Source of the DNA: the human T2T-CHM13v2.0 reference genome, Homo sapiens
Length of the DNA stretch: 64,000 nt
Direction: 5' to 3' (one strand)
NCBI RefSeq assembly: GCF_009914755.1
Contig: NC_060942.1
Part shown: in pieces, positions 1-52,276 of the stretch
Position numbering within the stretch: position 1 is the first letter of the stretch
How the letters are laid out: every line of letters begins with the position of its first letter
Notes under the pieces: model-generated
What the model saw: the letters and a program-made list of their open reading frames with translations, nothing else
What the model was told of the DNA's origin: nothing
Databases searched by the model: none
Made by a program: the position numbers and the translations under genes

Positions 1-3952
<3,952 letters not shown>

Positions 3953-4741
3953 TTCAGTTTTTCTTGGGAGAATGGTTTTGAAATATCACAAGATGTTTCC
4001 CAGTCATTACCTAAGACATCATCACCACAGCACCCAGGGTTTTCTTTAGTTTTACTTTCTCAAAAGTTTGGATACCATTTACTTCTGGATGAGAACCATT
4101 CCTTTTAAGCCAAAGATTTAATAGGCACAGAGTGAATGGTTGTGTTTGTCATATCCACAGTAGATCTAAAAAGGCTCAAATGTAAGAATTTATCTCTCCT
4201 GAGAAGACGGTGGTAGAAATTGACAGGCATATAGTATCTCCACCATTTTTTAACTAAGCAAATACTTTACAGTGTGGGTAACTCCTAGTTAGAACACACG
4301 ATTTTGTTACATAATAGCCAGTTTACGTACAACCTAAAAGCAATACTTTGGACCACACAGCTATGCTTCATTGTGATGTTCTGTGACCCAAACTGGTTTC
4401 CAAGCTGCTGTGAATGCGTCTCCCATTTTCTTGTATGACTGTCCTGCATTCCACAAAGCCAAAAAAGAAAAAAGTGGATTTATGTATAGAAGTGCCCCCA
4501 AACCCAATATGTATGTGCTTGTAGGCCTAAACTTATTATAAGCTTTGGAAAACCTAGAATGAGAGCTCCTGAACAGTTGTAGCTTTCCAAGCTGTGCCAG
4601 TATGGGCTTCCGCTCCCTGGTTGACTCCCGTTTTCCATGGGAGTCCTTTTATGTAGTTTTCCTTCTTAAGGAAAGAGAGAGGAGAATAGAAAAGGTGACA
4701 ATGGTATGAGACGTGGTCCCTCTTGCCTTCAAGATATTTTA

Positions 4742-5071
<330 letters not shown>

Positions 5072-5449
5072 TCAAGTCACTTGTTCCTGTTTTTAAAATA
5101 GCATGCTGAGGGATTTGGTCATATCATTAGCCCAGACATAGCCTGACAAGACCAGCCCTTGTGTAATGAGATTGGTTTGAGGTAGGAACTGTACTTGCTT
5201 TCTATGATGGGCAAGAGGAGACCCCAGGCTCTGGATGGGAAGCTGAAGGCTGACCAAGGGTGGATGAGGCAGAGGGCCTGCGAAGGGGACTCCACAGAGG
5301 CCACACGCAGGACAAGAGCAGCACTCTACTCCAGGCTTCATCCATCGTATGGAGGTCTGTGGTCATTTCACCCATTCATCTTGCTCCTCTGGAGAACCCA
5401 AACCCCGGAAACCACAAAGGGAATCGACTGCTGCTTCACAGGAAGGGTT

Positions 5450-5509
5450 TCATTCATGGTCACATTTCTTTACTGAAAAAGATGGGTATATTGAAGCGTT
5501 GACTGCCTC
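5450..5509 (-). pseudogene. Relict terminal coding exon equivalent to SELENOI exon 10
   Basis: Acceptor cttcctgtttcttcttgag; RQ-(deletion)-QRFNIPIF(+1 T)SVKKCDHE-TGA versus [22 protein letters not shown]. TGA at 5450-5452. Confidence 0.75.
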
Positions 5510-5698
5510 CTCAAGAAGAAACAGGAAGTGATCATTACCAAACAGAGGCTCCCTTTAAATTTAAAATATGTAGCCAAGAAAGAGGCTAACACTACCTAAG
5601 AAAGACCCCAATTAAATGTTTAAGCTAAAAAAAGCAGAGGGTTGGGGATAGGGCATGTTTTTGTTTTGTCTTCCAATTTCAGTGTTTTTAAAGGCTGA

Positions 5699-6007
<309 letters not shown>

Positions 6008-6308
6008 CATCTAACGATCTTTAAGTTATTCTAATGGAGCTCTATAGAGAGGGGTATTCTGAATCCATTAAGTTAGGTCTTGCCTTAATCCAAAAAAATA
6101 AACTAAAGCTGTCTGCATATTTTTAAGGCAGTATATTACATATAAATGAGGAAATCAGCATGAAGGGAAAGTAAGGCAGGAGGGAAAAGACAAAGCCAGA
6201 GGTAAAGTTAGGAGCCTTACACATGCCCTGAGGTCTTCTAGACTTTACTAGGACTAAAGGAGAAAAAATGACCTCTGTGCTTCCTAGTAGCCAACAGAGA
6301 GGAAAGTA

Positions 6309-6720
6309 CAACCAGCCCTCTGTATCTGAAGGGTCTACATCTACAGATCAACCATGTATCAAAAATATTTTTAAATAAATAGAAAATAATACAAATTTTT
6401 AAAAAATACAATATTAGAACTACATATAGTCCCTGATATACAATGGTTAAACTTACAATTTTTGGTCTTTATGATGAGTTTATCAGGATATTGAATGCAT
6501 TTTCAACTTATGAAATTTTTGACTTAAAAATGTGTTTATTGAGAAGCAACCTCATTATAAGTGAGAGCATCTGTACTTAACATTTACATCGCATTAGGTA
6601 TTATAAGTAATCTAGATATGATTTAAAGTATATGGGAGAATGTGTGAGGGTTGTATGCAAATACCATACCAGTTTTTACTAGGGACTTGAACATCCGTGG
6701 ATTTTGGTATTTGCAGGAGC
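6309..6720 (-). mobile_element. MER2-like (TcMar-Tigger) fossil with a nested MER47/Tigger5-like piece at ~6423-6575
   Basis: cagccctctgtatctgaagggtc...aaaatatt and ggacttgaacatccgtggattttggtat match MER2 reversed. The inner segment ends gagcatctgta, like a Tigger5 TIR. Confidence 0.65.
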
Positions 6721-7828
6721 AGTGTGTGTGCGGATGGGGGTGGGTGGAGGAGGGGTCCTGTTTAAACAAATCAGTTACTTGGGAGCACAGATATTTCTTG
6801 GCGTTACCTCCTAGGAAGAAATTGAATGATGTAGGGAGCCTGACCTCAACAACATCTCACAGCAAATACAGTAACACTGTAATAGGACTGCTTCCAACTA
6901 TCCCTGATGATATAATGCCAAGATGTGGTTCAGTCGAAAGCAATCTACCAGGGACTGGAGCTGTCTGTGCATGTAAACAGCTCCTGGGAGGTCGGGCTTC
7001 ATCCCAGGATAAACTATAGAATCATAGGGCAGTGATGGGGGCGAGGGGAAGGGTACTGCAAGTGCTACTCCCTGCAGCCTAAGTTTAGTAAATACTGAAT
7101 GGCAGTGTGACCTTGGCAACTACTAAAGGACAGACACTGAATGCTGCTGATCAACACCCGGTTCCTTTCCCAACAGTCAGCACATGGAGGGGAGGGGCTG
7201 TTCTCAGGCTACAGGCTGAGGAGCCCGGCCAGGCCACAAGCCACAGGCCACCCCACCCCTGGCAGGTGGGAGGAGGGGTGCCACGGTCCGGGTCACACTT
7301 TTCCCCAGAAGCATCATAAGGGTTTGACTTTTGTGAGTCTGTTTTGCGTTTGGTTTTGGTTTTTCAATTATCCTTGGCAATTCACTGATAGGGAAATTTT
7401 CAGTGTAGATTATAGATATGAAGCTATTAGCTGTTCCACACTCCTGTAAGCCTTAAAATTGTCCTGGAGAAAGCCCACTGACAGATGGTATGCTTCCTAA
7501 GTCAAAACACAAGTCTGTAGGGGAAAAGAGAGTATTTTAATAAAAATCTTATTATATCTATAAAACCCTTTACAGGTTGCAAAATGGCTTCAAAGATGAT
7601 AATTATTAGAGGAGAAAGAGAACAGGCTTTGAAAATTACCTAACTGGATTCCAATTCCAGCTACACCACTTCTACCTGTGTCCTTTTAAATAAATTACAC
7701 ATAATTTCTGAGCCTCAGTTTCCTCATCTGAACATATAGATGATACCTACCTTGCACAGTTGTTTTGAAAAATAAGTGAAGATGGTGTGTATAAAGTACC
7801 TTGCACATAGTCGATACTTAATAAATGG

Positions 7829-8404
<576 letters not shown>

Positions 8405-8540
8405 GAAAGAAGAAAGGAAAAGAAAGGAAGGGAAAGGAAGAGAAGGGAGGGGAGGGGAGGGGAGGGGAGGGGAGGGGAAGGGAAGGGAAGGGAAGGGAAA
8501 AAGAAAGGAATGGAAAAGGAAAAGGAAAGGACAAAGAAAG
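8405..8540 (+). repeat. Purine-rich (GGAAG/GGAGG/GAAAA)n tract
   Basis: Almost purely A/G for ~135 bp, derived from the Alu tail. Confidence 0.9.
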
Positions 8541-8987
8541 CAAAGTTAGCTATTACTACTAATTTTGGCTTCAATAGCAATCCTGTGAGGGAGGTAGTAC
8601 AGATATTACTGATATTATAATAATAATCTTCTTAGCCTGATGCTAAACATTTCAACACCGCCCACTGCTTTCACTGCCCTGCAGCAAGAGCAGTCCTAGG
8701 CAGCCATATGTTACGTGGTTCAGAGTGGGCGTCTAACCCAGGGCCAGTCAGTATTAGGGTTTTCAAGTGACCACATGGTCTGCCTCTCTGATGGCAATTA
8801 GATCCTCCCTCTGCTCTCCCCTTCCCTCTCATTTGCACTAAGGATTGAGAACCTTAGCAGTGAATACCAGAGCTTGAAAGGATGCACAGGGAACGAAGCC
8901 ACGAGGAAGGATCACAGCATGCTGATGTTATATATGAGCAGTTGCTCTGAAATAGAAAAAAGGTGAAAGTGGTCAAAAGAAAAGAGA

Positions 8988-9292
8988 GGCCTGGGCACAG
9001 GGACTCCCACCTGTAATCCCAGCACTTTGGGAGGCTGAGGCAGGAGGATTGCTTGAGGCTAGGAGTCTGAGACCAGCAATGTCAACATAGCAAGACCCTG
9101 TTTCTACAAAAAATGTAAAAATTAGCTGGGTGTGGTGATGCACACCTGTAGTCCTAGCTACTTGGGAGGCTGAGGCAGGAGGATGGCTTGAGCACAGGAG
9201 ATTGAGGCTGCAGTGAGCTATGATTGTGCCACTGCACTTCAGCCTGGGAAGCAGAGCAAGACCCTGTCTCTAAAAAAAAAAAAGAAGAAAAA
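8988..9292 (+). mobile_element. AluJ
   Basis: Diverged dimeric Alu with polyA. Confidence 0.9.
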
Positions 9293-10598: not shown

Positions 10599-10768
10599 CA
10601 TGCACACTGTCATGGCCATTACTCAGTTTGTGATGCAATGGATGGGACAAGTGTCAACTCCTCCAGCCTTTCCAGAGACCCTGTAACTGCAGAGAGGACC
10701 ACAGGGCCAGGAGAAACAGGGCCAGTGAGAGACTCTGATGTCACTCCTCAGACCAACATCACTCTGCG
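10599..10768 (-). pseudogene. Relict exon equivalent to SELENOI exon 9
   Basis: Acceptor ttgtttgctgttgaacag; RRVM...SES-HWP-FLLAL-VLSAVTGSLERLEELTLV...HDSV with several frameshifts; donor gtaaat. It resembles [33 protein letters not shown]...AHIHYGV, with weaker similarity than exons 5 and 8. Confidence 0.65.
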
Positions 10769-11458
10769 CTGTTCAACAGCAAACAAGCACATACTATGAT
10801 GACAAGGGAGGTAACTAGGCTAAAAAAAGCTCATTAAAAATCAACTTTATCTATAAAAATTTCCTCTTCTTCCTGCCCTGCTCTCTCCCCACAACTTCCT
10901 TCTCCTGAAAATACCTTCGTTAAACTAAGGACTAGAAAACCTGGGTTATTTCCAAAGGGAAGGTCATGGGAAACGCTTCCTTTGGACAGTTTTCTTCATT
11001 GGTTATAATTTAAAAAACAGCTCAGGGGTAATTTAAAACACATATTTTACTGGACATGCTGTTCACTTTCAACACAGAAATCATGCTATATACCTTTCTC
11101 CGTATTCCCAACTTCTGAATATCCAAGGAGGAAATCCAGTCATTGCCTCATTCATGAGGATAATGGCTCCCAATTGCCCAGTGAGAACCCATAGCACACT
11201 CTGCTTTAGCCACCTCTAATGATAACTAAGGCAGTGACCCACTGATGGTCTATTCTCTGCTCCTTCCGACATGCACTGAGTCATTCTTCTACCAGCACAG
11301 TGAGTAAGGACTCGTATTTTAAGTGTGCAAGTTGTTGGGTTATTTACTGAAACTTACTCAGCTTCCTTCTCTGGAACCTAGAGACAATAGCAGTAGTCTT
11401 GTTGTATGCCCACAGCCTGGTATACAATAGGTGCTCAATGAATAATAGTGTCATACAT

Positions 11459-16581: not shown

Positions 16582-16731
16582 TGACATTGGAGAAAACAAC
16601 ACCGGATATGAATATAAACATGGGATAAAGCCAAACATAAAGTAAGGACAAAAAACAAGAAGGCAGGAGACACCAAAGGGAGCAAAGCTTCCTGCAACCT
16701 ATCTCTCTTCAGGCTTTTCTACAGATATGCC
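16582..16731 (-). pseudogene. Relict exon equivalent to SELENOI exon 8
   Basis: Acceptor tttctctttgcag, then AYL*KSLKRDRLQEALLPLVSPAFLFFVLTLCLALS [~30-nt deletion] MFIFISGVVFSNV, donor gtaagg. SELENOI reads [36 protein letters not shown]...VFYFMVGTAFANST. In-frame TAG at 16719-16721. Confidence 0.88.
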
Positions 16732-51562: not shown

Positions 51563-51733
51563 TGCTTGGTATAGATCATAACCCTAAGGAAAAAAGGAGC
51601 CTCCAGTGTTGTCCTTCTCTGGTGGGAAGTTAAATAAGACAGTGCTCAGGAAGGGAACATCGTATGCACAGACATTTGTTCTCTCAACACAGAACTAGAC
51701 TGAGATCTCCTCACATGCTTCTATCTATGGAAT
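51563..51733 (-). pseudogene. Relict exon equivalent to SELENOI exon 5 (CDP-alcohol phosphotransferase motif)
   Basis: Acceptor ttctttttcattctag, then (D)SID-x-KHVRRSQSSSVLRE [deletion] MSVHTMF-x-FLSTVLFNF..EKDNTGGSFFP*GYDLYQA. SELENOI reads DGVDGKQARRTNSSTPLGE...[30 protein letters not shown]. The donor has decayed to gcaaga and the LFDHGLD part is deleted. Confidence 0.9.
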
Positions 51734-52276
51734 CTAGAATGAAAAAGAATTTTAAAAAGAAGTCGAACTCGAGAATGTTTAAAAGAATTCTACTTCGTGG
51801 ATTTTTACAGTCAATACAAAATAGTCTTATGGTTCTTTCAGCATATATACTTAAATTCAGCCTATTAAAATAGTATAATATGAATTAAACTTATTAACCA
51901 AAATTAAGAGTACATGGTGCTAAAACGATTGGTTGATTCAGTGGCAGTATTTATAAGTACACTATAAACAATTCCCCAACTGGCAATCATCTTTAGAAAC
52001 TTTAAATTTTTGATGTGGCTCAAGTCTGACTCTAAGCTTTTGGGTTTTCCATCTTAAAAAGCTCCCCTCCCTTACTCCCACATTGCCGCCCACTACATTA
52101 TAGAAACATTCTCATATAGCTTTATTTGTTACATTTATATCTTTATTGCATCCCACTCGTCTGTATTTGAACAAGCATTGCAAAAAGATACACAGCAGAC
52201 TGTTAACTTTGGTTATCTAGACTTTGCCTTTATACTGTATAACTGGATCTGTTATAATATATATATGTATTGCTTA

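What the first reader, a model, noticed from the sequence alone, without database searches (positions are those of the whole stretch)
5366..5509. Terminal TGA is in register with the selenocysteine codon of SELENOI
Allowing one extra T in a T5 run, the last exon reads RFNIPIFSVKKCDHE-TGA against SELENOI [16 protein letters not shown], with no gap, so TGA 5450-5452 sits at the Sec position. The frame stays open for 28 more codons to a second TGA (5363-5365). Inference: the lost gene was either a second SELENOI-type selenoprotein, whose living orthologs could be mis-annotated as ending at UGA, or a paralog whose Sec codon became a stop. I found no convincing SECIS by eye in 3960-5450.
Basis: partly seen in the sequence, partly recalled or inferred. 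Interest (0 to 1): 0.8.

Follow-up and report, generated by a model that had tools for sequence, protein, structure and literature searches.

The report
Stop codon of a dead EPT1L gene
The TGA is the end of the last exon of a long-dead human copy of EPT1L, a sister gene of selenoprotein I that birds, reptiles, frogs, marsupials and monotremes still have, and it most likely was an ordinary stop codon that happens to sit exactly where selenoprotein I has its selenocysteine.

Summary
On the minus strand, 5504-5450 reads SQRFNIPIF, one extra T (5477), then SVKKCDHE-TGA. The TGA (5450-5452) is gaplessly in register with the Sec codon of human SELENOI, whose last exon I read from the same genome.

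The "lost gene" is real. At least four collinear minus-strand exon relics lie in the window (about 51.7, 16.7, 10.7 and 5.5 kb), and two more lie upstream of it. They carry stops, frameshifts and a deletion in the catalytic motif.

The relic is not a SELENOI copy. It is the placental remnant of EPT1L ("ethanolaminephosphotransferase 1-like"). It is 59.9% identical to marsupial EPT1L against 40-45% to SELENOI, and it is sister to marsupials in a tree (UFBoot 99).

Of 65 living EPT1L proteins with an intact C-terminal motif, 56 end exactly four residues after FSxKK, the same register as the relic's TGA and SELENOI's Sec. Seven end earlier and one reads through with Ser. None of 65 SELENOI proteins ends earlier.

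There is no SECIS downstream and no similarity to SELENOI's tail after the TGA.

Best reading: this is the ordinary ancestral stop of EPT1L. A hidden selenoprotein is unlikely (about 7%) but not excluded, because no ortholog DNA could be read here.

The parts
5450..5452 (-). TGA: terminal codon of the relic's last exon, in register with SELENOI's Sec codon and with the annotated stop of most living EPT1L proteins
5453..5476 (-). Last eight codons, SVKKCDHE (ortholog S[ML]KK + 4 residues ending in E/D)
5477..5477 (-). Extra T in a T5 run (+1 frameshift relative to orthologs)
5478..5504 (-). SQRFNIPIF, matching ortholog SQH[FL]NIY[IT]F
5503..5531 (-). Exon start: polypyrimidine tract and AG acceptor (AG at 5511-5510), then AGG CAG (RQ, as in ortholog G|RQLSQ) in a third frame. 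This implies a second small deletion between RQ and SQ.
   Evidence: ortholog C-termini; the deletion is inference
5363..5449 (-). 28 open codons after the TGA, ending at a second TGA. No similarity to SELENOI's post-Sec tail (1 of 10). Treated as former 3'UTR.
10599..10806 (-). Penultimate exon relic (EPT1L aa ~305-366): VIIVCA.., VVLSAVTGSLERLEE.., TVCM|gtaaat donor. Contains frameshifts and stops.
16582..16731 (-). Best-preserved exon relic (aa ~244-304): cag acceptor, gtaagg donor, one TAG, one frameshift. 60% identical to marsupial EPT1L over 43 aa. Found genome-wide at E 4.3e-4.
51566..51743 (-). Catalytic-domain exon relic (aa ~99-190): LDSID / KHVRRSQSSSVLRE / ..EKDNTGGSFFP*GYDLYQ. About 35 codons are deleted, which removes the DxxxD part of the CDP-alcohol motif. 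Contains frameshifts and stops.

Best explanation
Window 5450-5509 (minus strand) is the last coding exon of a decayed, intron-containing (unprocessed) unitary pseudogene. It is the placental-mammal remnant of EPT1L, the vertebrate sister gene of SELENOI/EPT1. The gene ran on the minus strand from beyond the window (about window-equivalent 87.5 kb, near ZNF397) down to 5.45 kb, next to MAPRE2. The TGA at 5450-5452 is the gene's original termination codon, kept by chance through neutral decay. It lines up with SELENOI's Sec codon because both paralogs inherited a UGA/stop at this codon from their common vertebrate ancestor. In SELENOI that codon is decoded as Sec with the help of a SECIS. In EPT1L it simply ends the protein. 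Shown here: the relic, its orthology to EPT1L, the register, and the variable tail length in living EPT1L. Inferred: that the codon was a plain stop rather than Sec; that the loss dates to the placental stem; and the ohnolog origin, which rests on SELENOI lying near MAPRE3 on chr2 and the relic lying beside MAPRE2 on chr18.
For: Relic mapping. SELENOI proteins hit collinear minus-strand pieces. An HMM built from 31 SELENOI orthologs hits 16745-16614 at i-E 8e-6. Marsupial EPT1L (P0292) hits the same exon at E 2e-8 with 60% identity over 43 aa, and also hits 51.7 kb and 10.7 kb. Upstream exons lie in L012 at E 5e-6.

Whole-genome search with P0294. C18:35356617-35356742(-) scores E 4.3e-4, and there is no intact EPT1L locus elsewhere. 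The other hits are SELENOI, CEPT1 and CHPT1, plus weak ones with E from 0.09 to 5.6.

Splice sites are kept at SELENOI's intron positions.

Orthology. Over 149 relic residues, identity is 59.9% to Antechinus and Macrotis EPT1L, 57.8% to echidna, 55-59% to turtles and a bird, and 40-45% to 13 SELENOI sequences. In an IQ-TREE analysis the relic plus marsupials has UFBoot 99, mammals 77, the EPT1L clade 72 and the SELENOI clade 85.

Living EPT1L. The named EPT1L-type hits among the 120 listed come from birds, turtles, crocodilians, squamates, a monotreme, marsupials, amphibians, lungfish, coelacanth and basal ray-finned fishes. No placental is among them.

Tails. Of 65 EPT1L proteins with the motif, 56 end 4 residues after it, 7 are shorter (squamates, alligator), 1 reads through (Ser plus 2 residues) and 1 is an alternative isoform. 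Of 65 SELENOI proteins, 62 are cut at Sec and 0 are shorter.

No SECIS. Rfam SECIS_1 finds SELENOI's SECIS (L006 6799-6869, 19.4 bits, E 4.3) but nothing in window 1-5460 at E<=10. My pattern scan gives 1 hit in about 9 kb of SELENOI 3' sequence (the same site) and 0 in window 5449..1; shuffles give 0.07.

Synteny. EB1-domain exons lie at C18:35323384 (MAPRE2) and C2:27067593 (MAPRE3), 0.65 Mb from SELENOI at C2:26.41 Mb.
Against: The stop codon of living EPT1L genes could not be read, because no vertebrate DNA other than this genome is available here. The protein-level pattern 'ends 4 residues after the motif' is exactly what a Sec gene truncated by annotation looks like: 62 of 65 SELENOI entries look that way. 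The SECIS-negative result is weak. A relic at about 60% protein identity would rarely keep an intact SECIS core, and Rfam scores even the genuine SELENOI SECIS below its gathering cut-off (19.4 against 35). The relic segments used for the identity figures and the tree were picked with marsupial and monotreme queries, which biases identity towards them. The EPT1L-clade support is only 72. Absence from placentals rests on one hit list of 120 proteins. That the relic's TGA is the unchanged ancestral codon is probable, not shown.
Confidence: 0.8

Rival explanations
1. EPT1L is, or was in the placental ancestor, a second SELENOI-type selenoprotein. The TGA encoded Sec, and living orthologs are mis-annotated as ending there.
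For: The TGA is in exact register with SELENOI's Sec. The residue before it is acidic in both families (..QE/..AD against ..SD/..TE). Fifty-six of 65 EPT1L proteins end there, the same picture as 62 of 65 truncated SELENOI entries. RefSeq is reported to falter on C-terminal Sec families, including SELENOI to a lesser extent (PMC12822975, passage seen). The frame stays open for 28 codons after the TGA.
Against: Seven of 65 EPT1L proteins stop 1-4 codons earlier and 1 has Ser there with only 2 further residues, whereas 0 of 65 SELENOI proteins are shorter. There is no similarity to SELENOI's tail after the TGA (1 of 10). No SECIS was found by two methods that both recover SELENOI's. Vertebrate selenoproteome surveys list a single SelI and report no homolog of the C-terminal extension (PMC3316567, passages; 10.1101/2025.05.29.656587, passages). 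An open run of 28 codons has a chance probability of about 0.26.
Confidence: 0.07
2. This rival concerns history only. The pre-duplication vertebrate gene already had Sec here; EPT1L then lost its SECIS and the codon became a stop. The opposite history is that SELENOI captured a shared UGA stop as Sec.
For: Both paralogs have the UGA/stop at the same codon. A lamprey protein of SELENOI type is already cut at ..PNSD (P0351). One unnamed distant homolog (P0124) continues past this position with Ser, and its tail loosely resembles SELENOI's extension (E.ENLG against EEKNIG).
Against: Among 18 clearly distant (under 50% identity) unnamed homologs with the motif, tails run from 1 to 36 residues and 3 end at exactly +4 (P0127, P0133, P0134). 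A further +4 tail ends in an acidic residue (P0131, PPVE), but its placement is ambiguous. This fits an old plain stop near here. Mariotti 2012 describes the Sec-bearing part of SelI as an added C-terminal extension. Neither direction is decided by my data.
Confidence: 0.3
3. Chance: the 5.5 kb match is not an exon relic, and the TGA is one of many random stops in junk DNA.
For: The match is short (17 residues) and needs a frameshift. tblastn alone gives E about 1 even against 780 nt. An unshifted reading (..SIYPSFSVKK..) also aligns loosely.
Against: It is the top profile hit of the whole window on both strands, above all 20 shuffles. It lies collinear and downstream of three independently significant exon relics of the same gene. 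It is preceded by a polypyrimidine tract, an AG and RQ as in orthologs.
Confidence: 0.03

Closest known systems
EPT1L / 'ethanolaminephosphotransferase 1-like' of non-placental vertebrates (e.g. P0292 Antechinus, P0294 Macrotis, P0291 Tachyglossus, P0259 Parus, P0313 Xenopus, P0303 Latimeria)
   Same: Highest identity (59.9% over 149 residues). Tree position is sister to marsupials. Same C-terminal motif and the same termination register. Exon boundaries agree.
   Different: The human copy is dead: it has stops, at least six frameshifts, and a deletion of about 35 codons in the catalytic motif. Exons for aa ~191-243 were not found and no Pfam hit remains.
SELENOI (EPT1, selenoprotein I), human chr2
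   Same: Same family and the same intron positions. The last exon is homologous up to the codon before Sec, and the UGA is in the same register. Both lie beside a MAPRE paralog (MAPRE3 against MAPRE2).
   Different: Only 40-45% identity. SELENOI continues for 10 residues after UGA and has a SECIS 1.3 kb downstream; the relic shows neither.
Ancient unitary pseudogenes of genes lost in mammals, such as the vitellogenin relics (recalled, not checked here)
   Same: Collinear, intron-containing exon remnants at the ancestral locus of a gene that other vertebrates keep.
   Different: This concerns a phospholipid-synthesis enzyme paralog. I found no paper describing it: searches returned EPT1L only as a chicken gene symbol.

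Membership tests
EPT1L orthologs | Closer in sequence to EPT1L than to SELENOI, CEPT1 or CHPT1 | tested here: met
   59.9% against 40-45% over 149 residues. Each exon scores better with EPT1L than with SELENOI.
EPT1L orthologs | Falls at the species-tree position of a placental inside the EPT1L clade | tested here: met
   Sister to marsupials with UFBoot 99; with echidna 77; EPT1L clade 72.
EPT1L orthologs | Same chromosomal neighbourhood (beside MAPRE2) in species with a living gene | not testable with these tools
   No vertebrate genome other than this one is held. Only the human pairing of SELENOI-MAPRE3 against relic-MAPRE2 is shown.
Unitary, unprocessed pseudogene | Introns kept, disabling mutations, and no intact copy elsewhere in the genome | tested here: met
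   Exons are spread over about 82 kb with splice signals. Stops and frameshifts are present. The whole-genome search finds no other EPT1L locus.
CDP-alcohol phosphotransferase (PF01066) | D-G-x2-A-R-x8-G-x3-D-x3-D motif | tested here: not met
   Only LDSID and KHVRRSQSSSVLRE remain. No motif match in six frames. No Pfam hit in 1-28700 minus strand, and none on chr18 genome-wide. This is as expected for a broken gene.
Eukaryotic selenoprotein gene (SELENOI type) | In-frame UGA aligned with the family's Sec | tested here: met
   Gapless register from FS to TGA.
Eukaryotic selenoprotein gene (SELENOI type) | SECIS element in the 3'UTR | tested here: not met
   None in window 1-5460 by Rfam or by pattern scan. 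Both methods find SELENOI's SECIS. This test is weak for a decayed relic.
Eukaryotic selenoprotein gene (SELENOI type) | Coding conservation continues past the UGA | tested here: not met
   One of 10 residues matches SELENOI's [10 protein letters not shown]. Ortholog DNA past the stop could not be read.
Eukaryotic selenoprotein gene (SELENOI type) | The codon is invariably TGA and is never preceded by an earlier stop in orthologs | tested here: inconclusive
   Codon identity could not be read. At protein level 7 of 65 EPT1L proteins end earlier and 1 reads through, against 0 of 65 SELENOI proteins.

The most novel reading that the evidence does not exclude
EPT1L is an overlooked second SELENOI-type selenoprotein. 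Its UGA is Sec, and every database entry is cut at it, as 62 of 65 SELENOI entries are. The human TGA would then be the fossil of a 26th ancestral mammalian selenoprotein gene lost in placentals. A milder form of the idea: the shared codon shows that SELENOI's Sec was born by capture of an ordinary UGA stop after the vertebrate genome duplications, with EPT1L preserving the 'before' state.
Probability: 0.07. Interest if true: 0.85.

Novelty: new member of a known kind. Interest (0 to 1): 0.42.

Why it matters
SELENOI is an essential human enzyme whose Sec-bearing tail has no known function or origin. Published surveys state that no homolog covering the Sec position is known (passages seen). 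EPT1L is a vertebrate sister gene that ends at exactly that codon, so it gives a natural comparison. Reading its stop codons and 3'UTRs in chicken, opossum or Xenopus would show one of two things: that Sec arose by capture of a UGA stop, or that a selenoprotein has been missed. The relic also documents a gene of the Kennedy pathway lost in placentals. In the hit list EPT1L is also absent from most teleosts, which would explain why it has gone unstudied in human, mouse and zebrafish. For the finding as written, the verdict is sobering: the TGA is most probably an ordinary stop.

Tried and rejected
- Pfam scan of the minus strand 1-28700 with stops read as X found only L1 domains. The same scan for 28600-64000 was too large to print and returned an error.
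- A six-frame regex for the CDP-alcohol motif found nothing.
- PDB sequence search with the last-exon frame found nothing relevant.
- Earlier findings were not open.
- The search for homologous proteins with the 16.7 kb pseudo-exon scored 0 of 44 candidates. The word index cannot reach a decayed exon.
- Candidate exon at 15737-15654 (SELENOI aa 310-337, E 0.29) was rejected once EPT1L placed that exon at 10.7 kb.
- Candidate at 49510-49409 was rejected as L1-like by eye; the L1 likeness is recalled.
- The unshifted reading ..SIYPSFSVKK.. was considered as an alternative (IYP matches SELENOI).
- Rfam on 20 kb of SELENOI 3' sequence missed its SECIS at E<=1. It appeared only in a 4.6 kb search. 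The first negative result on window 1-9000 therefore carried little weight.
- The Atlas look-up of P0131 gave no taxon.
- The supplement of PMC13134290 held no mention of SELENOI or EPT1L (one file held as text). Figures S37 and S38 of PMC3316567 (SelI homolog alignment and tree) are images and could not be seen; they may show EPT1L-type sequences.

Full report
**Observation.** Stop-to-stop ORFs show 28 further open codons to a TGA at 5365-5363. The whole genome is held, so I located SELENOI on chr2 with PF01066. I fetched 50 kb downstream and read its last exon..[30 protein letters not shown]. From the FS anchor the relic's TGA is gaplessly in register with the Sec codon.

**Is there a lost gene?** Yes.
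- Pfam scans failed, as did a motif regex.
- tblastn of SELENOI orthologs obtained found collinear minus-strand pieces at 51.6 kb and 16.7 kb. An HMM of 31 SELENOI proteins hit 16745-16614 at i-E 8e-6.
- The 16.7 kb exon has a polypyrimidine tract and cag acceptor at SELENOI's intron position, and a gtaagg donor.
- The 51.6 kb exon ends at ..GYDLYQ, where SELENOI's exon ends ..GYDISQ.

**Which gene?** An exhaustive representative search with SELENOI returned two bird fragments that matched the 51.6 kb exon better than SELENOI did.
- Searching with one of them revealed a widespread annotated paralog, "ethanolaminephosphotransferase 1-like"; EPT1L is the chicken symbol.
- It occurs in birds, turtles, crocodilians, squamates, echidna, three marsupials, amphibians, lungfish, coelacanth and basal ray-finned fishes.
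- No placental is among the 120 listed hits. All placental entries in that list are SELENOI at about 55% identity.

**Mapping with marsupial EPT1L.**
- The 16.7 kb exon rises to 60% identity over 43 aa (E 2e-8).
- LDSID/KHVRRSQSSSVLRE is added at 51.7 kb.
- The penultimate exon is placed at 10.7 kb.
- Two 5' exons lie outside the window in L012, C18:35.4259-35.4275 Mb.
- A whole-genome search with Macrotis EPT1L finds C18:35356617-35356742(-) at E 4.3e-4 and no other EPT1L locus.
- The relic carries in-frame stops, several frameshifts and a deletion of about 35 codons that removes the DxxxD part of the catalytic motif.

**Orthology.**
- Over 149 recognisable residues the relic is 59.9% identical to Antechinus and Macrotis EPT1L and 57.8% to echidna.
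- It is 55-59% identical to turtles and a bird, 44-52% to amphibians, squamates, alligator and fishes, and 40-45% to 13 SELENOI proteins.
- In an LG+G4 tree it is sister to the marsupials (UFBoot 99) within mammals (77), inside EPT1L (72) and apart from SELENOI (85).
- Caveat: the segments were chosen with marsupial and monotreme queries.
- EB1-domain exons place MAPRE2 16.5 kb from the window start and MAPRE3 0.65 Mb from SELENOI. This fits an origin of the two genes in the vertebrate genome duplications. The wider 2p23/18q12 paralogy is recalled, not tested.

**The last exon.**
- Living EPT1L ends ..RQLSQH[LF]NIY[IT]FS[ML]KK plus four residues (RAQE, PAQE, RIQE, RVQE, RYAD, RHQE ..).
- The relic gives RQ (5508-5503, third frame), SQRFNIPIF (5504-5478), an extra T, then SVKKCDHE-TGA. 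That is 10 of 17 identities to echidna or Macrotis, plus the stop.
- A profile scan of both strands ranks this site first: 33.4 against 21.6 for the next best, with shuffle maxima of 23.9 +/- 2.5 and max 28.5 over 20 shuffles.

**Stop or Sec?**
- At protein level, 56 of 65 EPT1L sequences with the C-terminal motif end exactly four residues after it. This is the register of the relic's TGA and of SELENOI's Sec. Of the 93 EPT1L-type sequences, 28 were truncated or alternative models without the motif and were left out.
- That pattern alone cannot decide the question, because 62 of 65 SELENOI entries are likewise cut at the Sec codon.
- Against Sec, from the tails: 7 of 65 EPT1L proteins end 1-4 codons earlier (Anolis, Phrynosoma, three geckos, Rhineura, Alligator), and one reads through with Ser and stops two codons later. 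No SELENOI entry is shorter (0 of 65).
- Against Sec, from the sequence after the TGA: the relic's next ten codons match SELENOI's tail at 1 of 10.
- Against Sec, from SECIS searches: none is detectable in the 5.4 kb downstream. Rfam SECIS_1 finds SELENOI's own element (L006 6799-6869) at only 19.4 bits and E 4.3 in a 4.6 kb search. It had missed it in a 20 kb search. It finds nothing in window 1-5460 at E<=10.
- A simple ATGA..AA..GA-plus-helices scan finds one site in about 9 kb of SELENOI 3' sequence (the same one), none in window 5449..1, and 0.07 per shuffle.
- For a relic this old the SECIS negative is weak evidence.

**Literature.**
- Mariotti et al. 2012 (PMC3316567, passages) list one SelI and found no Cys forms homologous to its C-terminal extension.
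- The 2025-26 survey (passages) says no homolog includes the Sec position outside vertebrates.
- Neither passage mentions EPT1L.
- My searches found EPT1L only as a gene symbol in chicken expression tables.

**Direction of change.** Among 18 unnamed distant homologs with the motif, tails are 1-36 residues long and three end at +4. One (P0124) continues with Ser and a tail loosely like SELENOI's. I cannot decide whether SELENOI captured a shared UGA stop or EPT1L lost Sec.

**Verdict.** The TGA is most likely its ordinary stop codon (about 0.8). The selenoprotein reading is unlikely (about 0.07) but cheaply testable on ortholog DNA, which these tools do not hold.

Noticed in passing
L012 3524-3444 and 2037-1897 (C18:35425897-35427524, outside the window): 5' exon relics of the same EPT1L pseudogene (aa ~59-103; E 5e-6 and 1e-5). 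The relic therefore spans about 82 kb and fills most of the MAPRE2-ZNF397 interval.
   Followed up: partly
proteins /: In the hit list EPT1L is absent from placentals and also from sharks, lamprey and all teleosts except eels, tarpon, bonefish and a mormyrid. This suggests several independent losses. It rests on one list of 120 hits.
   Followed up: no
proteins: Sixty-two of 65 SELENOI-type database proteins with an intact C-terminal motif are cut at the Sec codon. One (P0102) shows W at that position followed by an extension, as if TGA had been read as Trp.
   Followed up: no
L006 6799-6869 (SELENOI 3'UTR, chr2): Rfam SECIS_1 scores the genuine-looking SELENOI SECIS at only 19.4 bits (gathering cut-off 35) and misses it in a 20 kb search. 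Rfam negatives for SECIS therefore mean little.
   Followed up: yes
P0124 (unnamed representative, 399 aa): A distant EPT1 homolog continues past the Sec-equivalent position with Ser, and its tail (..PEQENLGKNQ) loosely resembles SELENOI's post-Sec [10 protein letters not shown]. If it is an invertebrate, this would bear on the claim that no homolog covers the Sec position outside vertebrates.
   Followed up: no
window ~850-2300, minus strand: L1 ORF1 (trimerisation, RRM-like and dsRBD-like domains) and the start of the ORF2 endonuclease, within the masked repeat at the window start.
   Followed up: no
window 5235-5334: A RefSeq 'enhancer' element (hub table) lies about 120 bp downstream of the relic's TGA, inside its former 3' region. 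I did not test any relation to the relic.
   Followed up: no
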